DNA of 9,693 nucleotides from a virus (Duplodnaviria > Heunggongvirae > Uroviricota > Caudoviricetes), in the IMG/VR virus record IMGVR_UViG_2554235125_000002; one strand, given 5' to 3'. The position numbers were made by a program, and so were the translations under genes. The notes below the pieces were generated by a model that saw only the letters and a program-made list of their open reading frames with translations, was not told the origin of the DNA and searched no databases. Position 1 is the first letter of the stretch. Every line of letters begins with the position of its first letter. Below, one piece after another: positions 182 to 9,050 of this stretch.

Positions 182-597
182 GTTTTGCCCTGAAACTGGC
201 GCGTGAAATGGGGCGACCCGACTGGCGCGCCATGCTTGCCGGGATGTCATCCACGGAGTATGCCGACTGGCACCGCTTTTACAGTACCCATTATTTTCAT
301 GATGTTCTGCTGGATATGCACTTTTCCGGGCTGACGTACACCGTGCTCAGCCTGTTTTTCAGCGATCCGGAGATGCATCCGCTGGATTTCAGTCTGCTGA
401 ACCGGCGCGAGGCTGACGAAGAGCCTGAAGATGATGTGCTGATGCAGAAAGCGGCAGGGCTTGCCGGAGGCGTTCGTTTTGGCCCGGACGGGAATGAAGT
501 TATCCCCGCTTCCCCGGATGTGGCGGACATGACGGAGGATGACGTAATGCTGATGACAGTATCAGAAGGGATCGCAGGAGGAGTCCGGTATGGCTGA
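163..597 (+). CDS. T: Tail assembly chaperone T segment, expressed only as a G-T fusion via -1 frameshift (no independent start)
   Basis: The ORF track's 144-aa product (VFDGELSFALKLAREMGRPDWRAMLAGMSSTEYADWHRFYSTHYFHDVLLDMHFSGL...GIAGGVRYG*) is in the -1 frame relative to G. The track's start at 163 is the GTG immediately after the slip site, not a true initiation codon. Stop TGA at 595-597 overlaps the H start. Confidence 0.85.
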   Translation: MFDGELSFALKLAREMGRPDWRAMLAGMSSTEYADWHRFYSTHYFHDVLLDMHFSGLTYTVLSLFFSDPEMHPLDFSLLNRREADEEPEDDVLMQKAAGLAGGVRFGPDGNEVIPASPDVADMTEDDVMLMTVSEGIAGGVRYG

Positions 598-3139
598 ACC
601 GGTAGGCGATCTGGTCGTTGATTTAAGTCTGGATGCGGCCAGATTTGACGAGCAGATGGCCAGAGTCAGGCGTCATTTTTCCGGTACGGAAAGTGATGCG
701 AAAAAAACAGCGGCAGTCGTTGAACAGTCGCTGAGCCGACAGGCACTGGCTGCACAGAAAGCGGGGATTTCCGTCGGGCAGTATAAAGCCGCCATGCGTA
801 TGCTGCCTGCACAGTTCACCGACGTGGCCACGCAGCTTGCAGGCGGGCAAAGTCCGTGGCTGATCCTGCTGCAACAGGGTGGTCAGGTGAAGGACTCCTT
901 CGGTGGGATGATCCCCATGTTCAGGGGGCTTGCCGGTGCGATCACCCTGCCGATGGTCGGGGCCACCTCGCTGGCGGTGGCGACCGGTGCGCTGGCGTAT
1001 GCCTGGTATCAGGGCAACTCAACCCTGTCCGATTTCAACAAAACGCTGGTCCTTTCCGGCAATCAGTCGGGTCTGACGGCAGATCGTATGCTGGTCCTGT
1101 CCAGAGCCGGGCAGGCGGCAGGGCTGACGTTTAACCAGACCAGCGAGTCACTCAGCGCACTGGTTAAGGCGGGAGTAAGCGGTGAGGCTCAGATTGCATC
1201 CATCAGCCAGAGTGTGGCGCGTTTCTCCTCTGCATCCGGCGTGGAGGTGGACAAGGTCGCTGAAGCCTTCGGGAAGCTGACCACAGACCCGACGTCGGGG
1301 CTGACAGCGATGGCGCGTCAGTTCCATAACGTGACGGCGGAGCAGATTGCGTATGTTGCTCAGTTGCAGCGTTCCGGCGATGAAGCCGGGGCATTGCAGG
1401 CAGCGAACGAGGCCGCAACGAAAGGGTTTGATGACCAGACCCGCCGCCTGAAAGAGAACATGGGCACGCTGGAGACCTGGGCAGACAGGACAGCACGGGC
1501 ATTCAAATCCATGTGGGATGCGGTACTGGATATTGGTCGTCCTGATACCGCTCAGGAGATGCTGATTAAGGCAGAGGCTGCGTTTAAGAAAGCGGACGAC
1601 ATCTGGAATCTGCGCAAGGATGATTATTTTGTTAACGATGAAGCGCGGGCGCGTTACTGGGATGATCGTGAAAAGGCCCGTCTTGCGCTTGAAGCCGCCA
1701 GAAAGAAGGCTGAACAGCAGAGTCAACAGGACAAAAATGCGCAGCAGCAGAGCGATACCGAAGCGTCACGGCTGAAATATACCGAAGAGGCGCAGAAGGC
1801 TTACGAACGGCTGCAGACGCCGCTGGAGAAATATACCGCCCGTCAGGAAGAACTGAACAAGGCACTGAAAGACGGGAAAATCCTGCAGGCAGATTACAAC
1901 ACGCTGATGGCAGCGGCGAAAAAGGATTATGAATCGGCGCTGAAAAAGCCGAAACAGTCCGGCGTGAGGGGGTCTGCGGGCGATCGTCAGGAAGACAGTG
2001 CTCATGCTGCCCTGCTGACGCTTCAGGCAGAACTCCGGACGCTGGAGAAGCATGCCGGAGCAAATGAGAAAATCAGCCAGCAGCGCCGGGATTTGTGGAA
2101 GGCGGAGAGTCAGTTCGCGGTACTGGAGGAGGCGGCGCAACGTCGCCAGCTGTCTGCACAGGAGAAATCCCTGCTGGCGCATAAAGATGAGACGCTGGAG
2201 TACAAACGCCAGCTGGCTGCACTTGGCGACAAGGTTACGTATCAGGAGCGCCTGAACGCGCTGGCGCAGCAGGCGGATAAATTCGCACAGCAGCAACGGG
2301 CAAAACGGGCCGCCATTGATGCGAAAAGCCGGGGGCTGACTGACCGGCAGGCAGAACGGGAAGCCACGGAACAGCGCCTGAAGGAACAGTATGGCGATAA
2401 TCCGCTGGCGCTGAATAACGTCATGTCAGAGCAGAAAAAGACCTGGGCGGCTGAAGACCAGCTTCGCGGGAGCTGGATGGCAGGCCTGAAGTCCGGCTGG
2501 AGTGAGTGGGAAGAGAGCGCCACGGACAGTATGTCGCAGGTAAAAAGTGCAGCCACGCAGACCTTTGATGGTATTGCACAGAATATGGCAGCGATGCTGA
2601 CCGGCAGTGAACAGAACTGGCGCAGCTTCACCCGTTCCGTGCTGTCCATGATGACAGAAATTCTGCTTAAGCAGGCAATGGTGGGGATTGTCGGAAGTAT
2701 AGGCAGCGCCATTGGCGGCGGCGCATCAGCGTCAGGCGGCACAGCCATTCAGGCCGCTGCGGCGAAATTCCATTTTGCAACCGGAGGATTTACGGGAACC
2801 GGCGGCAAATATGAGCCAGCGGGGATTGTTCACCGTGGTGAATTTGTCTTCACGAAAGAGGCAACCAGCCGGATTGGCGTGGGGAATCTTTACCGGCTGA
2901 TGCGCGGCTATGCCACCGGCGGTTATGTCGGTACACCGGGCAGCATGGCGGACAGTCGGTCGCAGGCGTCCGGGAAGTTTGAGCAGAATAACCATGTGGT
3001 GATTAACAACGACGGCACGAACGGTCAGATAGGGCCACAGGCGCTGAAGGCGGTTTATGACGTAGCCCGTAAGGCGGCAATGGATGTTGTGACCGGGCAG
3101 ATGCGTGATGGTGGTCTGTTCTCCGGAGGTGGACGATGA
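590..3139 (+). CDS. H: Tail tape measure protein (849 aa)
   Basis: ATG at 590 is preceded by SD AGGAGGA (576-582). The product starts MAEPVGDLVVDLSLDAARFDEQMARVRRHFSG..., which I recognise as lambda gpH, and ends ...MRDGGLFSGGGR. It has a long charged, Ala/Gln/Lys/Glu-rich central region typical of tape measure proteins and a Gly-rich C-terminal segment. Its start overlaps the T stop (ATGGCTGA). Confidence 0.96.
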   Translation: MAEPVGDLVVDLSLDAARFDEQMARVRRHFSGTESDAKKTAAVVEQSLSRQALAAQKAGISVGQYKAAMRMLPAQFTDVATQLAGGQSPWLILLQQGGQVKDSFGGMIPMFRGLAGAITLPMVGATSLAVATGALAYAWYQGNSTLSDFNKTLVLSGNQSGLTADRMLVLSRAGQAAGLTFNQTSESLSALVKAGVSGEAQIASISQSVARFSSASGVEVDKVAEAFGKLTTDPTSGLTAMARQFHNVTAEQIAYVAQLQRSGDEAGALQAANEAATKGFDDQTRRLKENMGTLETWADRTARAFKSMWDAVLDIGRPDTAQEMLIKAEAAFKKADDIWNLRKDDYFVNDEARARYWDDREKARLALEAARKKAEQQSQQDKNAQQQSDTEASRLKYTEEAQKAYERLQTPLEKYTARQEELNKALKDGKILQADYNTLMAAAKKDYESALKKPKQSGVRGSAGDRQEDSAHAALLTLQAELRTLEKHAGANEKISQQRRDLWKAESQFAVLEEAAQRRQLSAQEKSLLAHKDETLEYKRQLAALGDKVTYQERLNALAQQADKFAQQQRAKRAAIDAKSRGLTDRQAEREATEQRLKEQYGDNPLALNNVMSEQKKTWAAEDQLRGSWMAGLKSGWSEWEESATDSMSQVKSAATQTFDGIAQNMAAMLTGSEQNWRSFTRSVLSMMTEILLKQAMVGIVGSIGSAIGGGASASGGTAIQAAAAKFHFATGGFTGTGGKYEPAGIVHRGEFVFTKEATSRIGVGNLYRLMRGYATGGYVGTPGSMADSRSQASGKFEQNNHVVINNDGTNGQIGPQALKAVYDVARKAAMDVVTGQMRDGGLFSGGGR

Positions 3140-3465
3140 AAACCTTCCGCTGGAAAGTGAAACCCGGTATGGATGTGGCTTCGGCCCCTTCTGTAAGAAA
3201 GGTGCGCTTTGGTGATGGCTATTCCCAGCGAGCGCCTGCCGGGCTGAATGCCAACCTGAAAACGTACAGCGTGACGCTTTCTGTCCCCCGTGAGGAGGCC
3301 ACGGTACTGGAGTCGTTTCTGGAAGAGCACGGGGGCTGGAAAGCCTTTCTGTGGACGCCGCCTTATGAGTGGCGGCAGATAAAGGTGACCTGCGCAAAAT
3401 GGTCGTCGCGGGTCAGTATGCTGCGTGTTGAGTTCAGCGCAGAGTTTGAACAGGTGGTGAACTGA
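3136..3465 (+). CDS. M: Minor tail protein M (109 aa)
   Basis: ATG at 3136 overlaps the H stop (ATGA), with SD GGAGGTGG at 3125-3132. The product MKTFRWKVKPGMDVASAPSVRKVRFGDGYSQRAPAGLNANLKTYSVTLSV... is recognised as lambda gpM. Confidence 0.95.
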   Translation: MKTFRWKVKPGMDVASAPSVRKVRFGDGYSQRAPAGLNANLKTYSVTLSVPREEATVLESFLEEHGGWKAFLWTPPYEWRQIKVTCAKWSSRVSMLRVEFSAEFEQVVN

Positions 3466-4193
3466 TGCAGGATATCCGGCAGGAAACGCTGAATGAATGC
3501 ACTCGTGCGGAGCAGTCGGCCAGCGTGGTGCTCTGGGAAATCGATCTGACAGAGGTCGGTGGAGAACGTTATTTTTTCTGTAATGAGCAGAACGAAAAAG
3601 GTGAGCCGGTCACCTGGCAGGGGAGGCAGTATCAGGCGTATCCCATTCAGGGGAGGCAGTATCAGGCGTATCCCATTCAGGGGAGCGGTTTTGAACTGAA
3701 TGGCAAAGGCACCAGTACGCGGCCCACGCTGACGGTTTCTAACCTGTACGGTATGGTCACCGGGATGGCGGAAGATCTGCAGAGTCTGGTCGGCGGAACG
3801 GTGGTCCGGCGTAAGGTTTACGCCCGTTTTCTGGATGCGGTGAACTTCGTCAACGGAAACAGAGACGCCGATCCGGAGCAGGAGGTGATCAGCCGCTGGC
3901 GCATCGAGCAGTGCAGCGAACTGAGCGCGGTCAGTGCCTCTTTTGTACTGTCCACACCGACTGAAACGGATGGCGCTGTTTTTCCGGGGCGTATCATGCT
4001 GGCCAACACCTGCACCTGGACCTATCGCGGCGATGAGTGCGGTTATAGCGGTCCGGCGGTCGCGGATGAATATGACCAGCCGACGTCCGATATCACGAAG
4101 GATAAATGCAGCAAATGCCTGAGCGGCTGTAAGTTTCGCAATAACGTCGGCAACTTTGGCGGCTTCCTTTCCATTAACAAACTTTCGCAGTAA
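3465..4193 (+). CDS. L: Minor tail / tail tip protein L (242 aa, includes a 10-aa in-frame duplication)
   Basis: ATG at 3465 overlaps the M stop (TGATG), with an AGGTGG SD upstream. The product MQDIRQETLNECTRAEQSASVVLWEIDLTEVGGERYFFCNEQNEKGEPVTWQG... is recognised as lambda gpL. The C-terminus carries the cysteine pattern C-x9-C ... C-x2-C-x3-C. Stop TAA at 4191-4193. Confidence 0.95.
   Translation: MQDIRQETLNECTRAEQSASVVLWEIDLTEVGGERYFFCNEQNEKGEPVTWQGRQYQAYPIQGRQYQAYPIQGSGFELNGKGTSTRPTLTVSNLYGMVTGMAEDLQSLVGGTVVRRKVYARFLDAVNFVNGNRDADPEQEVISRWRIEQCSELSAVSASFVLSTPTETDGAVFPGRIMLANTCTWTYRGDECGYSGPAVADEYDQPTSDITKDKCSKCLSGCKFRNNVGNFGGFLSINKLSQ
3621..3680 (+). repeat. Perfect 30-bp tandem direct duplication (2 copies) inside L, in frame, flanked by CAGGGGAG microhomology
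   Basis: 3621-3650 and 3651-3680 are both gggaggcagtatcaggcgtatcccattcag. The motif CAGGGGAG occurs at 3618-3625, 3648-3655 and 3678-3685. Translation gives RQYQAYPIQG twice. Confidence 0.95.
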
Positions 4194-4197
4194 TCCC

Positions 4198-4941
4198 ATG
4201 ACAGAGACAGAATCAGCGATTCTGGCGCACGCCCGGCGATGTGCGCCAGCGGAGTCGTGCGGCTTCGTGGTGAGAGCGCCGGAGGGGGAAAGATATTTTC
4301 CCTGCGTGAATATTTCCGGTGAGCCGGAGGATTATTTCCGGATGGCTCCGGAGGACTGGCTGCAGGCAGAGATGCAGGGTGAGATTGTGACACTGGTCCA
4401 CAGTCATCCCGGTGGTCTGCCCTGGCTGAGTGAGGCTGACCGGCGGCTGCAGGTGCAGAGTGATTTGCCGTGGTGGCTGGTCTGCCGGGGGGCGATTCAC
4501 AAGTTCCGCTGTGTGCCGCATCTCACCGGGCGTCGCTTTGAGCACGGGGTGACGGACTGTTACACGCTGTTCCGGGATGCTTATCATCTGGCGGGGATTG
4601 AGATGCCGGATTTTCATCGCGGGGATGACTGGTGGCGTCACGGCCAGAATCTCTATCTGGATAATCTGGAGGCCACAGGGCTGTATCAGGTGCCGTTGTC
4701 ATCAGCACAACCGGGCGATGTGCTGCTGTGCTGTTTTGGTTCATCGGTGCCGAATCATGCCGCCATTTACTGTGGTGACGGCGAGCTGCTGCACCATATT
4801 CCTGAACAACTGAGTAAACGAGAGAGGTATACCGACAAATGGCAGCGACGCACACACTCCCTCTGGCGTCACCGGGAATGGCACGCATCTGCCTTTACGG
4901 GGATTTACAACGATTTGGCCGCCGCATCGGCCTTCGTGTGA
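4198..4941 (+). CDS. K: Tail tip assembly protein K (247 aa; N-terminal MPN/JAMM-like domain plus C-terminal NlpC/P60-like domain)
   Basis: ATG at 4198 lies 5 nt after the L stop, and the frame is open to TGA 4939-4941. The product MTETESAILAHARRCAPAESCGFVV... contains an exact JAMM-type motif H-S-H-x7-S-x2-D (HSHPGGLPWLSEAD). The C-terminal half has Cys/His residues in NlpC/P60-like context (DCYTLF ... NHAAIY). An internal ATG at 4342 would give the 199-aa form. Confidence 0.88.
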   Translation: MTETESAILAHARRCAPAESCGFVVRAPEGERYFPCVNISGEPEDYFRMAPEDWLQAEMQGEIVTLVHSHPGGLPWLSEADRRLQVQSDLPWWLVCRGAIHKFRCVPHLTGRRFEHGVTDCYTLFRDAYHLAGIEMPDFHRGDDWWRHGQNLYLDNLEATGLYQVPLSSAQPGDVLLCCFGSSVPNHAAIYCGDGELLHHIPEQLSKRERYTDKWQRRTHSLWRHREWHASAFTGIYNDLAAASAFV

Positions 4942-5510
4942 AAACGGGGGCTGAAGCCATCCGCGCACTGGCCACACAGCTCCCTGCGTTTCGTCAGAAA
5001 CTGAGCGACGGCTGGTATCAGGTACGGATTGCCGGGCGGGACGTCAGCACGTCCGGATTAACGGCGCAGTTACATGAGACTCTGCCTGATGGCGCTGTGA
5101 TTCATATTGTTCCCAGAGTCGCCGGGGCCAAGTCAGGTGGTGTATTCCAGATTGTCCTGGGAGCAGCCGCCATTGCCGGATCATTCTTTACCGCCGGAGC
5201 CACCCTTGCAGCATGGGGGGCAGCCATTGGGGCCGGTGGTATGACCGGCATCCTGTTTTCTCTCGGTGCCAGTATGGTGCTCGGTGGTGTGGCGCAGATG
5301 CTGGCACCGAAAGCCAGAACTCCCCGTACACAGACAACGGATAACGGTAAGCAGAACACGTATTTCTCCTCACTGGATAACATGGTTGCCCAGGGCAATG
5401 TTCTGCCTGTTCTGTACGGTGAAATGCGCGTGGGGTCACGCGTGATTTCTCAGGAGATCAGCACGGCAGACGAAGGGGATGGTGGTCAGGTTGTGGTGAT
5501 TGGTCGCTGA
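4839..5510 (+). CDS. I: Tail assembly protein I (223 aa)
   Basis: ATG at 4839 starts inside the 3' end of K in a different frame (103-nt overlap). The product MAATHTLPLASPGMARICLYGDLQRFGRRIGLRVKTGAEAIRALATQ... is recognised as lambda gpI, with a Gly/Ala-rich hydrophobic segment in its C-terminal half. Stop TGA at 5508-5510. Confidence 0.93.
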   Translation: MAATHTLPLASPGMARICLYGDLQRFGRRIGLRVKTGAEAIRALATQLPAFRQKLSDGWYQVRIAGRDVSTSGLTAQLHETLPDGAVIHIVPRVAGAKSGGVFQIVLGAAAIAGSFFTAGATLAAWGAAIGAGGMTGILFSLGASMVLGGVAQMLAPKARTPRTQTTDNGKQNTYFSSLDNMVAQGNVLPVLYGEMRVGSRVISQEISTADEGDGGQVVVIGR

Positions 5511-5528: not shown

Positions 5529-5548
5529 AAACCGCCTCCGGGCGGTTT
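5529..5548 (+). other. Perfect 8-bp stem-loop (AAACCGCC / tccg / GGCGGTTT) in the I-J intergenic region; possible weak terminator, attenuator or RNA-stability hairpin
   Basis: Inverted repeat 5529-5536 and 5541-5548 with a 4-nt loop, followed by a T-rich stretch (ttttatcgtttat). It lies 18 nt after the I stop and about 22 nt before the J ATG. Confidence 0.4.
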
Positions 5549-5570
5549 TATCGTTTATGGATCATGACGA

Positions 5571-8500
5571 ATGGGTAAAGGCAGCAGTAAGGGGCATACC
5601 CCGCGCGAAGCGAAGGACAACCTGAAATCATCCCAGATGCTGAGCGTGATAGACGCCATCAGTGAAGGGCCGGTTGAAGGTCCGGTGGACGGATTAAAAA
5701 GTGTGCTGCTGAACAGTACGCCAGTGCTGGACAGTGAGGGGAATACCAATATCTCCGGCGTCACGGTGGTGTTCCGGGCAGGTGAGCAGGAGCAGACACC
5801 GCCGGAGGGGTTTGAATCCTCCGGCTCCGAGACGGTGCTGGGTACGGAAGTGAAATACGACACGCAGATCACCCGCACCATCACGTCGGCAAACATCGAC
5901 CGTCTGCGCTTTACCTTCGGTGTGCAGGCACTGGTGGAAACCACCTCAAAGGGAGACAGGAATCCGTCGGAAGTCCGTCTGCTGGTTCAGATACAGCGTA
6001 ACGGTGGCTGGGTGACGGAAAAAGACATCACCATTAAGGGCAAAACCACCTCGCAGTATCTGGCCTCGGTGGTGGTGGATAACCTGCCTCCGCGCCCGTT
6101 CAATATCCGGATGCGCAGGATGACACCGGACAGCACCACAGACCAGCTGCAGAACAAAACGCTCTGGTCGTCATACACCGAAATCATCGATGTGAAACAG
6201 TGCTACCCGAACACGGCACTGGTCGGCGTGCAGGTGGATTCGGAGCAGTTCGGCAGCCAGCAGGTGAGCCGTAATTATCATCTTCGCGGGCGCATTCTGC
6301 AGGTGCCGTCGAACTATAACCCGCAGACGCGGCAATACAGCGGTATCTGGGACGGAACGTTTAAGCCGGCATACAGCAACAACATGGCCTGGTGTCTGTG
6401 GGATATGCTGACCCATCCGCGCTACGGCATGGGGAAACGTCTTGGTGCGGCAGATGTGGATAAATGGACGCTGTATGTCATCGGCCAGTATTGCGACCAG
6501 TCGGTGCCGGACGGTTTTGGCGGCACGGAGCCGCGCATCACCTGTAATGCGTACCTGACCACGCAGCGTAAGGCGTGGGATGTTCTCAGCGATTTCTGCT
6601 CGGCGATGCGCTGTATGCCGGTATGGAACGGACAGACGCTGACGTTCGTGCAGGACCGACCGTCGGATAAGGTGTGGATCTATAACCGCAGTAATGTGGT
6701 GATGCCGGATGATGGCGCGCCGTTCCGCTACAGTTTCAGCGCCCTGAAGGACCGCCATAATGCCGTTGAGGTGAACTGGATTGACCCGGATAACGGCTGG
6801 GAGACGGCGACAGAGCTTGTTGAAGATACGCAGGCCATTCCCCGTTACGGTCGTAACGTCACGAAGATGGATGCCTTTGGCTGTACCAGCCGGGGGCAGG
6901 CACACCGCGCCGGGCTGTGGCTGATTAAAACGGAGCTGCTGGAAACGCAGACCGTGGACTTCAGCGTGGGCGCAGAAGGGCTTCGCCATGTACCGGGCGA
7001 TGTTATTGAAATCTGTGATGATGACTATGCGGGTATCAGCACCGGCGGGCGCGTGCTGGCGGTGAACAGCCAGACGCGGACACTGACGCTCGACCGTGAA
7101 ATCACGCTGCCATCCTCCGGTACCACGCTGATAAGCCTGGTTGACGGAAGTGGCAATCCGGTCAGCGTGGAGGTTCAGTCCGTCACCGACGGCGTGAAGG
7201 TAAAAGTGAGCCGTGTTCCTGACGGTGTTGCTGAATACAGCGTATGGGGGCTGAAGCTGCCGACGCTGCGCCAGCGACTGTTCCGCTGCGTGAGTATCCG
7301 TGAGAACGACGACGGCACGTATGCCATCACTGCCGTGCAGCATGTACCGGAAAAAGAAGCCATCGTGGATAACGGGGCGCACTTTGACGGCGACCAGAGC
7401 GGCACGGTGAATGGTGTCACGCCGCCAGCAGTGCAACACCTGACCGCAGAAGTCACCGCAGACAGCGGGGAATACCAGGTGCTGGCGCGCTGGGATACGC
7501 CGAAGGTGGTGAAGGGCGTGAGCTTTATGCTTCGCCTGACCGTGGCAGCGGATGACGGCAGTGAGCGGCTGGTCAGCACAGCCCGGACGACGGAAACCAC
7601 ATACCGCCTCAGGCAGCTGGCGCTGGGGAACTACAGGCTGACAGTCCGGGCGGTAAATGCGTGGGGACAGCAGGGCGATCCGGCATCGGTATCGTTCCGG
7701 ATTGCCGCACCGGCAGCGCCGTCTCGGATTGAGCTGACGCCGGGCTATTTTCAGATAACCGCCACGCCGCATCTTGCGGTTTATGATCCGACGGTACAGT
7801 TTGAGTTCTGGTTCTCGGAAAAGCGGGTTGCTGATACCAGACAGGTTGAAACCAGCGCGCGTTATCTTGGTACGGGGCTGTACTGGATAGCTGCCAGTAT
7901 CAATATCAAACCGGGCCATGATTATTCTTTTTACATCCGCAGTGTGAACACCGTTGGCAAATCGGCATTCGTGGAGGCTGTTGGCCAGCCGAGTGATGAT
8001 GCATCCGGCTATCTGAATTTTTTCAAAGGAGAGATAGGGAAAACCCATCTGGCTCAGGAGTTGTGGACGCAGATTGATAACGGTCAGCTTGCGCCTGACC
8101 TGGCGGAAATCAGAACGTCCATCACGGATGTCAGTAATGAAATCACGCAGACCGTCAATAAGAAACTGGAAGACCAGAGTGCGGCAATCCAGCAGATACA
8201 GAAGGTTCAGGTTGATACAAATAATAACCTGAACAGCATGTGGGCTGTGAAGCTGCAGCAGATGCAGGACGGACGCCTTTATATCGCGGGTATTGGTGCC
8301 GGTATTGAGAATACCCCTGACGGTATGCAGAGTCAGGTGCTGCTGGCGGCGGACAGGATTGCGATGATTAATCCTGCGAATGGCAACACAAAGCCGATGT
8401 TTGTTGGTCAGGGCGATCAGATATTCATGAACGAAGTGTTCCTGAAATATCTGACGGCTCCCACCATTACCAGCGGCGGTAATCCTCCGGCATTTTCCCT

Positions 8501-9050
8501 GACACCGGACGGGCGGCTGACGGCGAAAAATGCCGATATTAGCGGTAACGTGAATGCGAACTCCGGGACGCTCAACAACGTCACGATTAACGAGAACTGC
8601 CGGGTTCTGGGAAAACTGTCCGCGAACCAGATTGAAGGCGATCTCGTTAAAACAGTGGGCAAAGCTTTCCCCCGGGACTCCCGTGCACCGGAGCGGTGGC
8701 CATCAGGGACCATTACCGTCAGGGTTTATGACGATCAGCCGTTTGACCGGCAAATTGTTATTCCGGCGGTGGCATTCAGTGGCGCTAAACATGAGCAAGA
8801 TCATACTGATATCTACTCCTCATGCCGTCTGATAGTACGAAAAAACGGTGCTGAAATTTATAACCGAACGGCTCTGGATAATACGCTGATATATACGGGT
8901 GTTATTGATATGCCTGCAGGCAGTGGTGTAATGACACTGGAATTTTCTGTATCGGCATGGCTGGTAAATGGCTGGTATCCCACAGCAAGTATCAGCGATT
9001 TGCTGGTTGTGGTGATGAAGAAAGCCACTGCAGGCATCATGATTAGCTGA
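5571..9050 (+). CDS. J: Central tail fibre / host specificity protein J (1159 aa)
   Basis: The 1159-aa ORF starts [54 protein letters not shown]..., recognised as lambda gpJ. The N-terminal ~800 aa appear near-identical to lambda J as I recall it. The C-terminal ~340 aa diverge but keep the conserved block ...[45 protein letters not shown].... Stop TGA at 9048-9050. Confidence 0.95.

What the first reader, a model, noticed from the sequence alone, without database searches (positions are those of the whole stretch)
4198..4941. K probably starts at ATG 4198 (247 aa), not at the internal Met giving 199 aa
The K reading frame is open immediately after the L stop, with an ATG at 4198. The protein carries an exact JAMM-type motif HSHPGGLPWLSEAD (H-x-H-x7-S-x2-D) at residues 68-81 of the long form. 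An MPN/JAMM fold needs roughly 40-60 residues of upstream sequence, including a conserved Glu (candidates E19, E29, E31), and these exist only in the long form. Starting at ATG 4342 would truncate the domain and leave about 150 nt of tightly packed operon unexplained. My recollection is that classic lambda annotation gives K as 199 aa, so homologues may be systematically annotated short. The pairing of an MPN/JAMM-like domain with an NlpC/P60-like domain in a tail assembly protein is itself mechanistically interesting.
Basis: partly seen in the sequence, partly recalled or inferred. Interest (0 to 1): 0.45.

Follow-up and report, generated by a model that had tools for sequence, protein, structure and literature searches.

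The report
Lambda-type tail gene K: full-length start
The tail-assembly gene K in this E. coli prophage does start at ATG 4198 and encodes a 247-residue two-domain peptidase, which current databases already record; the textbook 199-residue phage lambda K comes from one base missing in the 1982 reference sequence.

Summary
ATG 4198 lies 4 nt after the L stop and opens a 247-codon frame ending at 4941. The motif HSHPGGLPWLSEAD sits at residues 68-81.

The main interpretation also holds:
- Pfam Prok-JAB fits residues 4-98 (51 bits). It falls below threshold (21 bits) in the 199-aa form.
- The catalytic Glu is E19, and the first 48 residues hold several of the family's best-conserved positions.
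- Distant homologues begin at the same point, next to the upstream gene's stop. Most have Ile, not Met, at position 49.
- Codons 2-48 evolve as coding sequence.
- AlphaFold gives a confident model of an MPN domain joined to an NlpC/P60 domain.

None of this is new. RefSeq already lists this exact protein at 247 aa. The JAB plus NlpC/P60 architecture was published in 2003-2006.

The useful correction is the cause of lambda's 199 aa. J02459 and NC_001416 lack a G after position 14266 that re-sequenced lambdas carry, and this breaks the long frame. UniProt TIPK_LAMBD and some derived records still carry the short form.

Homologues are not systematically annotated short; only a minority are. A minor internal-start isoform cannot be excluded.

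The parts
4198..4941 (+). Gene K, full-length CDS (247 aa plus stop). It is 94% identical to the corrected lambda K.
   Evidence: RefSeq holds the identical protein, WP_019842782.1, at 247 aa.
4191..4200 (+). L stop TAA (4191-4193), a 4-nt spacer and the K start ATG (4198-4200). No Shine-Dalgarno sequence is present, so this is a translational-coupling junction.
   Evidence: Read. Anti-SD duplex energy is +0.7 kcal/mol. In 178 of 182 non-redundant homologous loci the start lies -8 to +9 nt from the upstream gene's stop.
4207..4491 (+). Prok-JAB / MPN+ (JAMM) metallopeptidase domain, residues 4-98.
   Evidence: Pfam PF14464, 51 bits. A PDB profile search hits 2kcq and 2kks over profile positions 2-103. 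Foldseek matches PfJAMM1 5ld9 with target-normalised TM 0.67.
4252..4254 (+). Codon for E19, the JAMM catalytic Glu (context P17-x-E19-x-C21-G22). It is present only in the long form.
   Evidence: At least 90% conserved in alignment A1. It lies exactly 49 residues before the HxH motif in the loci checked.
4399..4440 (+). JAMM zinc-site motif H68-S-H70-x7-S78-x2-D81.
   Evidence: H68, H70 and D81 are invariant and S78 is at least 90% conserved in A1.
4326..4344 (+). SD-like GGAGG (4326-4330) followed 11 nt later by the internal ATG 4342 (Met49). This is the classic '199-aa' start. The GGAGG also forms the 3' arm of a small predicted hairpin at 4313-4330.
   Evidence: Anti-SD duplex energy is -9.5 kcal/mol. 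The Met49-equivalent residue is Ile in 112 and Met in 79 of 196 loci. The internal ATG is lost in 2 of 79 close relatives.
4528..4869 (+). NlpC/P60 (C40) cysteine peptidase domain, residues 111-224. The triad is C121 (codon 4558-4560), H187 and H199.
   Evidence: Pfam PF00877, 47.7 bits. D120, H187 and H199 are invariant and C121 is at least 90% conserved. Foldseek matches MepS, LytE and Acd33800.
4839..4941 (+). Overlap of the K 3' end with the 5' end of gene I, taking the lambda-style ATG 4839 as the I start.
   Evidence: Polymorphism is reduced, and the variable sites fall on I-frame third codon positions. Pfam Lambda_tail_I needs this stretch for full coverage.

Best explanation
Window 4198-4941 is gene K of a lambda-type E. 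coli prophage, the tail tip assembly protein gpK.

Start site. Translation starts at ATG 4198, 4 nt after the L stop. It most likely starts by termination-reinitiation coupling, because no Shine-Dalgarno sequence precedes it. The product is 247 residues.

Domains.
- Residues about 4-98 form a complete JAMM/MPN+ zinc metallopeptidase domain with E19, H68, H70, S78 and D81.
- Residues about 111-224 form an NlpC/P60 cysteine peptidase domain with C121, H187 and H199.

Origin of the 199-aa annotation. The classic lambda K exists because J02459 lacks one G after position 14266 (GGAGGC^TATTTCC). That splits the 247-codon frame, and an SD-preceded ATG happened to lie just downstream of the break.

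Function (inferred, not shown here). gpK is a non-structural two-headed peptidase that acts during tail tip assembly. Its most likely substrate is the neighbouring gpI, from which it would cut away the N-terminal ubiquitin-like domain, as Iyer et al. proposed in 2006.
For: Domain fit. Prok-JAB scores 51 bits over residues 4-98 in the long form. It scores 21.1 bits, below the cut-off of 25, in the short form. NlpC_P60 is unchanged between the two. NCBIfam desampylase hits only the long form, and below its own cut-off.

Conservation.
- In 58 homologues at 32-58% identity the N-termini coincide with residue 1 to within a few residues.
- P17, E19, C21, G22, N38 and F47 are conserved, and all lie in the first 48 residues.

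Gene layout, from 196 non-redundant loci.
- The start lies 16-21 residues before the Glu in 189 loci.
- The start codon is ATG in 194.
- The start lies -8 to +9 nt from the upstream stop in 178 of the 182 loci where an upstream ORF could be found.
- The Met49-equivalent residue is Ile in 112 loci.
- Even among 79 close relatives, 2 lack the internal ATG.

Selection.
- Variable sites in codons 2-48 number 10, 6 and 28 at codon positions 1, 2 and 3.
- pN/pS is 0.25 there, against 0.15 for the rest of the gene.
- The two alternative frames give ratios of about 2.

Structure.
- AlphaFold2 gives pLDDT 96.9 and pTM 0.91. Helix 3-15 and strands 21-27 and 30-36 lie in the extension.
- Foldseek hits include PfJAMM1 (alone and with the ubiquitin-like SAMP2), AMSH, Rpn11, CSN5, and MepS and LytE.
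- A PDB profile search aligns positions 2-103 to the bacterial MPN proteins 2kcq and 2kks.

Reference error.
- J02459 and NC_001416 read GGAGGCTATTTCC. LC730321, PV340536, KT232076, DE3 and lambda imm21 read GGAGGCGTATTTCC, and each then has an open 247-aa frame.
- A whole-genome comparison of LC730321 with J02459 lists +G at 14266/14267.

Annotation. PGAP genomes, phage 21 and PV340536 annotate 744 nt.

Function.
- gpK was not detected in virions by mass spectrometry (PMC10721106).
- Only gpI residues 134-222 are resolved in virion structures (PMC12617516).
- The single gpI peptide found by mass spectrometry covers 9.87% of 223 aa, which is 22 residues. That matches only the C-terminal tryptic peptide, by my own digest.
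Against: - There is no Shine-Dalgarno sequence before ATG 4198 (+0.7 kcal/mol). The internal ATG 4342 has GGAGG 11 nt upstream (-9.5 kcal/mol), and 77 of 79 close relatives keep that ATG. Some internal initiation is therefore plausible.
- No N-terminal peptide or ribosome-profiling data could be examined.
- Two other records, OR474059 and OR974322, share the reference's missing base. OR974322 has reference-identical coordinates and looks reference-guided.
- The proposed substrates are inference. The mass-spectrometry evidence is one peptide from a protein present at 3 copies per virion.
Confidence: 0.9

Rival explanations
1. Dual initiation. The 247-aa enzyme is made from ATG 4198. In addition, a 199-aa isoform is made from the SD-preceded ATG 4342. 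That isoform would carry the NlpC/P60 domain plus a non-functional stub of the MPN domain, and both products might be used.
For: GGAGG lies 11 nt upstream of ATG 4342, with a duplex energy of -9.5 kcal/mol. The ATG is kept in 77 of 79 close relatives and the GGAGG in 77 of 79. Gene callers picked this start for four 199-aa protein clusters totalling about 11,000 member sequences.
Against: - The GGAGG is explained by coding: CCG GAG G encodes the conserved Pro43-Glu44.
- The Met49-equivalent residue is Ile in 112 of 196 loci, so any short isoform is at most a feature of one clade.
- Two close relatives lack the ATG.
- The GGAGG sits in a predicted hairpin, and the 11-nt spacing is longer than optimal.
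- A fragment starting at residue 49 would lack a helix and two strands of the MPN fold.
Confidence: 0.12
2. The classic annotation is right. K is 199 aa from ATG 4342, and 4198-4341 is untranslated or a separate small ORF.
For: The J02459 and NC_001416 annotation and UniProt TIPK_LAMBD are 199 aa. ATG 4342 has a strong SD.
Against: - That annotation rests on a sequence lacking one base that re-sequenced lambdas carry.
- The JAB model falls below threshold without the extension.
- The catalytic Glu and other conserved residues lie in the first 48 residues.
- Codons 2-48 are under purifying selection in the K frame.
- Distant homologues have no Met at position 49.
Confidence: 0.02
3. K starts further upstream at TTG 4156, giving 261 aa and overlapping the end of L by 38 nt.
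For: It is the first start codon in the stop-to-stop frame.
Against: - Homologue N-termini align to ATG 4198, with the Glu at residue 17-22 in nearly all loci.
- In lambda proper the frame upstream of the ATG is only 7 codons long and contains no start codon.
- There is no SD (-1.7 kcal/mol).
Confidence: 0.01

Closest known systems
Phage lambda tail tip assembly protein K (gpK; UniProt TIPK_LAMBD, GenBank AAA96551). Iyer et al. 2006 call the family TAPK.
   Same: It is 94% identical over all 247 residues to lambda K as read from re-sequenced lambda. The gene order H-M-L-K-I-J is the same. The JAB plus NlpC/P60 architecture matches that described in PMC1779556.
   Different: Nothing biological differs. 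The difference is in the records: the lambda reference entries give 199 aa because of a missing base, whereas the window's frame is intact.
Prokaryotic and archaeal JAMM/MPN+ peptidases that cut ubiquitin-like proteins: Pyrococcus furiosus JAMM1 (PDB 5ld9, 5lda), the Haloferax desampylase (NCBIfam NF041370), and the bacterial MPN proteins 2kcq and 2kks.
   Same: The fold matches (Foldseek probability 1.0, target-normalised TM 0.62-0.67). The E...HxH...S..D motif is the same. A ubiquitin-like partner is encoded next door (gpI, Pfam Lambda_tail_I).
   Different: It scores only 28 bits against the desampylase model, whose cut-off is 130, so it is not an equivalog. It is fused to a second peptidase domain. 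It serves virion assembly, and no E1-like enzyme is encoded in the window's tail gene set.
NlpC/P60 (C40) peptidases such as E. coli MepS/Spr, B. subtilis LytE and CwlO, and the phage NlpC family TIGR02219.
   Same: Pfam NLPC_P60 scores 47.7 bits. The Cys-His-His triad is conserved. The fold matches structurally.
   Different: It is below the cut-off for TIGR02219 (22.8 bits against 81.9). gpK is not found in virions (PMC10721106), so a role in cell-wall digestion during infection is unlikely. A protein substrate inside the assembling tail is more likely.

Membership tests
JAMM/MPN+ metallopeptidase (Pfam Prok-JAB PF14464) | The profile HMM score exceeds the curated gathering cut-off. | tested here: met
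   The 247-aa form scores 51 bits against a cut-off of 25, over residues 4-98. The 199-aa form scores 21.1 bits and fails.
JAMM/MPN+ metallopeptidase (Pfam Prok-JAB PF14464) | The complete motif E-x(n)-H-[ST]-H-x7-S-x2-D. | tested here: met
   E19, H68, S69, H70, S78 and D81 are present. They are conserved in 58 divergent homologues. The motif definition is from PMC300881.
JAMM/MPN+ metallopeptidase (Pfam Prok-JAB PF14464) | The MPN alpha/beta fold. | tested here: met
   The AlphaFold2 model has pLDDT 96.9. Foldseek hits PfJAMM1, AMSH, Rpn11 and CSN5 at probability 1.0. This rests on a predicted structure, not a solved one.
JAMM/MPN+ metallopeptidase (Pfam Prok-JAB PF14464) | Zinc binding and (iso)peptidase activity. 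| not testable with these tools
   This needs purified protein, metal analysis and a cleavage assay.
NlpC/P60 (C40) cysteine peptidase (PF00877) | The HMM score exceeds the cut-off and the Cys-His-His/polar triad is present. | tested here: met
   47.7 bits against a cut-off of 23, over residues 111-224. C121, H187 and H199 are conserved.
NlpC/P60 (C40) cysteine peptidase (PF00877) | Hydrolytic activity on a defined substrate, either peptidoglycan stem peptide or protein. | not testable with these tools
Absence from virions (PMC10721106) argues for an intracellular assembly substrate.
Lambda tail tip assembly protein K (TAPK) | Close sequence identity to lambda K over the full length. | tested here: met
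   233 of 247 residues are identical to K of re-sequenced lambda PV340536.
Lambda tail tip assembly protein K (TAPK) | Position between L (minor tail protein) and I (ubiquitin-like tail assembly protein), upstream of J. | tested here: met
   ORF map. The PGAP neighbourhood of a 98.9% identical locus shows the same order. Pfam Lambda_tail_I hits the downstream ORF.
Lambda tail tip assembly protein K (TAPK) | Required for tail assembly but absent from the finished virion. | not tested
   This is known for lambda from the literature (PMC12617516, PMC10721106). It was not tested for this prophage.

The most novel reading that the evidence does not exclude
gpK is an active two-headed peptidase whose complete JAMM domain removes the N-terminal ubiquitin-like domain of gpI, in the manner of a deubiquitinase, during tail tip assembly. 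It might also catalyse the still-unassigned cleavage of the tape measure gpH to gpH*. Work on lambda itself may have overlooked this because the reference K entry lacks the catalytic Glu and the first three secondary-structure elements of the domain. One 2020 review that analysed the 199-aa entry reported a single peptidase domain at residues 52-182 (PMC7291167). A second, smaller possibility is a clade-specific 199-aa isoform made from the internal ATG.
Probability: 0.3. Interest if true: 0.55.

Novelty: already known. Interest (0 to 1): 0.22.

Why it matters
For this window nothing changes, because RefSeq already carries the 247-aa protein.

The practical value is curatorial. The model-phage reference entries still give a truncated K: J02459, NC_001416, UniProt TIPK_LAMBD, and copies in the DE3 and lambda-hybrid records. 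That form lacks the JAMM catalytic Glu, and the cause is one missing base. Anyone who designs constructs, mutants or structure predictions from those entries will miss half of the MPN domain. At least one review that used the 199-aa entry reports only a single peptidase domain (PMC7291167).

Using the full-length sequence makes an old prediction directly testable with point mutants E19A, H68A and C121A. The prediction is that K processes the ubiquitin-like gpI. The protease that cleaves gpH is also reported as unknown (PMC12617516).

Tried and rejected
- TTG 4156 as the start was rejected on homologue N-termini and on lambda's own short upstream frame.
- The search for related loci with the divergent alignment A1 failed because no stretch was conserved enough. 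Single divergent proteins P0131 and P0182 were used instead.
- Literature searches for an explicit published note of the missing base in J02459, or for N-terminal or ribosome-profiling evidence on K, found nothing usable.
- Two attempts to open papers by PMC id as I recalled them found nothing held: the Casjens and Hendrix 2015 review and the 2013 lambda ribosome-profiling paper.
- From memory only, and unverified: a commercial supplier's lambda sequence notes list a G inserted at 14266 and a G deleted at 138. Both changes do appear in LC730321.
- OR974322 and OR474059 share the reference's version. OR974322 has reference-identical feature coordinates and comes from a chicken swab sample, so I did not count it as an independent witness. 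OR474059 was not examined further.
- I did not fold the 199-aa form on its own. A single-sequence model would not be a fair comparison.
- I did not model a K-I complex, because the tool returns no inter-domain confidence values or coordinates.
- Antisense ORFs across 4043-4977 were set aside. The substitution pattern fits the K frame.

Full report
**What the window is**

The ORF map shows the lambda tail-tip gene block:
- H: 590-3139
- M: 3136-3465
- L: 3465-4193
- K frame: ending at 4941
- I: 4839-5510
- J: 5571-9050

The K region matches thousands of E. coli prophages. There are 14,812 places in 4,375 of 5,426 complete genomes. It is 96-98% identical at the DNA level to phage 21, phage 434 and lambda-like phages. 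The exact 247-aa product is RefSeq WP_019842782.1, 'C40 family peptidase'. It is recorded on a contig of 9,693 nt, the same length as this window.

**Check of the observation**

Every element holds.
- L ends with TAA at 4191-4193.
- ATG 4198 follows after 4 nt, and the frame runs to TGA at 4939-4941, giving 247 aa.
- ATG 4342 would give 199 aa.
- HSHPGGLPWLSEAD is at residues 68-81.

Lambda's records J02459 and NC_001416 do annotate K as 199 aa (14276..14875). They leave 148 nt unassigned after L, which ends at 14127.

**Which start is real: domain evidence**

- Pfam Prok-JAB fits residues 4-98 of the long form (profile positions 4-103 of 114; 51 bits; cut-off 25).
- In the short form it drops to 21.1 bits and covers only profile positions 63-103.
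- NLPC_P60 is unaffected by the choice of start.
- The NCBIfam desampylase model touches only the long form, and below its own cut-off.
- A profile built from 58 divergent homologues aligns positions 2-103 to the solved bacterial MPN proteins 2kcq and 2kks.

**Which start is real: family evidence**

An exhaustive search of 50%-identity representatives returned 2,715 relatives. The full-length ones, about 230-260 aa and 35-50% identical, align from query residues 3-10 to their own residues 3-15.

In the alignment of 58 of them:
- G22 and N38 are invariant, and P17, E19, C21 and F47 are at least 90% conserved. All six lie in the first 48 residues.
- H68, H70 and D81 are invariant, and S78 is at least 90% conserved.
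- In the NlpC/P60 domain, D120, H187 and H199 are invariant and C121 is at least 90% conserved.

**Which start is real: gene layout**

Among 196 non-redundant K genes taken from 240 viral-contig loci and the annotated records:
- The start codon lies 16-21 residues before the Glu in 189 genes.
- The start codon is ATG in 194.
- The start sits -8 to +9 nt from the stop of the upstream gene in 178 of the 182 cases where an upstream ORF could be found.
- The residue equivalent to Met49 is Ile in 112, Met in 79, Val in 4 and Leu in 1.

Twenty-four further loci were skipped by my script because their Glu-to-HxH spacing differs. Their printed sequences still show the E-x-C-G motif upstream of HSH. 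Even within 79 close relatives, two have lost the internal ATG, one to ATT and one to CTG.

**Which start is real: selection**

In the 79 close relatives:
- Codons 2-48 have variable sites at codon positions 1, 2 and 3 in the ratio 10:6:28. The rest of the gene shows 45:29:109.
- pN/pS is 0.25 in codons 2-48 and 0.15 in the rest.
- Reading the same bases in the other two frames gives ratios of about 2.

The extension is therefore protein-coding in the K frame.

**Structure**

AlphaFold2 with the 58-sequence alignment gives pLDDT 96.9 and pTM 0.91.
- The extension contributes helix 3-15 and strands 21-27 and 30-36.
- The MPN domain continues with helix 51-60, strand 62-69, helix 79-88 and strands 92-96 and 99-103.
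- The NlpC/P60 domain follows.

Foldseek against the PDB returns both halves:
- PfJAMM1 alone and bound to the ubiquitin-like SAMP2 (5ld9 and 5lda; target-normalised TM 0.62-0.67), plus AMSH, Rpn11 and CSN5.
- MepS, LytE and clostridial autolysins.

A protein starting at Met49 would lack three secondary-structure elements and the catalytic Glu.

**Why lambda says 199 aa**

In J02459 and NC_001416 the long frame is not open.
- The K frame there opens only 6 codons before the annotated ATG.
- An ATG at 14133, 5 nt after the L stop, opens a frame that reads MTQTES...GEPEA and then departs from the K sequence.
- The alignment shows a single missing base. The reference has GGAGGC-TATTTCC. The window has GGAGGATTATTTCC, and phage 21 and another prophage have GGAGGCGTATTTCC.

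A 151-nt probe across the site found only four records with the reference version: J02459, its RefSeq copy, OR474059 and OR974322. The other 28 records at 99% identity or more carry one extra base. These include several lambda or lambda-derived genomes:
- LC730321, PV340536 and KT232076
- DE3
- lambda imm21, lambda imm434 and lambda h434 imm21
- HK629 and HK630

I read the sequence in five of these: LC730321, PV340536, KT232076, DE3 and lambda imm21. Each has GGAGGCGTATTTCC. Four show a complete open 247-aa frame; the LC730321 stretch I fetched ends before the K stop but is open across the site.

A whole-genome comparison of LC730321 (48,503 bp) with J02459 lists 15 differences, including +G at 14266/14267.

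OR974322 comes from a chicken swab sample and has feature coordinates identical to the reference. It looks reference-guided.

The simplest reading is a base missed in 1982 in a G+C-rich run. A real mutation in the sequenced stock cannot be formally excluded.

**How far the short form has spread**

- Annotated long (744 nt): PGAP E. coli genomes, the phage 21 record and PV340536.
- Annotated short despite an intact frame: DE3 (EU078592) and lambda imm21 (OM418625) still give 199 aa, and KT232076 gives 211 aa.
- UniProt's TIPK_LAMBD is the 199-aa sequence.
- Among the 120 listed protein clusters, four clusters of exactly 199 aa hold about 11,000 member sequences. The nineteen 247-aa clusters hold about 50,700 by my tally.

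Gene callers probably pick the internal ATG because of ribosome-binding signals. GGAGG lies 11 nt upstream of it (-9.5 kcal/mol), whereas ATG 4198 has no SD at all (+0.7 kcal/mol).

The truncation has already affected published analysis. A 2020 review that analysed the 199-aa entry reports one peptidase domain at residues 52-182 (PMC7291167).

**How it probably works**

Shown here:
- The two catalytic sites are intact and conserved.
- The start is coupled to the L stop.

From the literature:
- gpK is required for tail assembly, but its location is unknown (PMC12617516).
- It was not detected in virions by mass spectrometry (PMC10721106).
- JAMM motifs in lambda K were noted in 2003 (PMC300881).
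- The JAB plus NlpC/P60 'TAPK' next to a ubiquitin-like 'TAPI' was described in 2006, with the prediction that K cleaves I after the conserved C-terminal Gly of the beta-grasp domain (PMC1779556).

Inference:
- Virion structures resolve only gpI residues 134-222.
- The one gpI peptide seen by mass spectrometry covers 9.87% of 223 residues, which is 22 residues. That matches only the C-terminal tryptic peptide VVSQEISTADEGDGGQVVVIGR, by my own digest of the lambda sequence.
- This is consistent with removal of the N-terminal ubiquitin-like part, but it is weak evidence, because gpI is present at only three copies per virion.
- The protease that cuts gpH to gpH* is stated to be unknown, so K is a candidate. 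That is speculation.

**Rivals**

A minor 199-aa isoform from ATG 4342 cannot be excluded.
- For it: 77 of 79 close relatives keep the ATG, and 77 of 79 keep the GGAGG.
- Against it: the GGAGG is accounted for by the conserved Pro43-Glu44 codons. It lies in a small predicted hairpin. The wider family has Ile at position 49.

A short-only K and a TTG 4156 start are both strongly disfavoured.

**Verdict**

The result is already in RefSeq and the architecture is in the literature, so the finding is ordinary. The added value is the cause of the lambda discrepancy, a single missing base in the reference. That missing base still propagates a catalytically incomplete K in reference resources.

Noticed in passing
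window 4839-4941 (K/I overlap), with possible gene I starts at 4839, 4878 and 4938: Gene I has the opposite annotation problem. PGAP starts I at GTG 4938 (190 aa, overlapping the K stop). Classic lambda starts it at ATG 4839 (223 aa).

Evidence that the PGAP form is too short:
- Pfam Lambda_tail_I covers profile positions 2-83 only with the long form (residues 14-97, 97 bits). The 190-aa form covers profile positions 26-83 at 69 bits.
- The overlap has about 7 variable sites per 100 nt, against about 19 in the flanking sequence. Those sites fall on I-frame third positions (0, 2 and 5 at positions 1, 2 and 3).

The true start is ATG 4839, which has an SD at -9.3 kcal/mol, or possibly ATG 4878 (Met14). 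phrog_32 aligns from residue 12.
   Followed up: partly
window 3618-3685 (inside gene L): There is a perfect 30-nt tandem duplication, CAGGGGAGGCAGTATCAGGCGTATCCCATT, in 2.3 copies at 100% match. It adds 10 in-frame residues, so L is 242 aa here. L is 232 aa in lambda and 699 nt in the related prophages checked.
   Followed up: partly
lambda J02459 versus LC730321 (loci L256 and L254): Besides the +G at 14266/14267, the re-sequenced lambda LC730321 differs from the reference at 14 other sites. These include a G deleted at 138 and a C inserted at 20833. The insertion lies in the orf-401/orf-314 side tail fibre region, where the lab strain is known to carry a frameshift. The lambda reference therefore has several small discrepancies that affect reading frames.
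   Followed up: partly
window 5529-5556 (I-J intergenic region): There is a G+C-rich hairpin followed by a T-rich run, AAACCGCCTCCGGGCGGTTTTATCGTTT. The phage 21 record annotates the equivalent position as a terminator. The simple terminator scan did not list it.
   Followed up: no
window 4313-4330: A small hairpin, TTTCCGG-TGAG-CCGGAGG, pairs the SD-like GGAGG that precedes the internal ATG 4342. This might damp internal initiation. It lies inside the K coding sequence, so it is not a terminator.
   Followed up: no
protein clusters P0012, P0014, P0025, P0031, P0036, P0092 and P0118: The databases hold proteins in which K is fused to L (Pfam PF05100) or to I (PF06805). Most are singletons. They are probably frameshift or assembly artefacts at the tightly packed L/K and K/I junctions, although Iyer et al. 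(PMC1779556) also mention natural TAPI-TAPK fusions.
   Followed up: no
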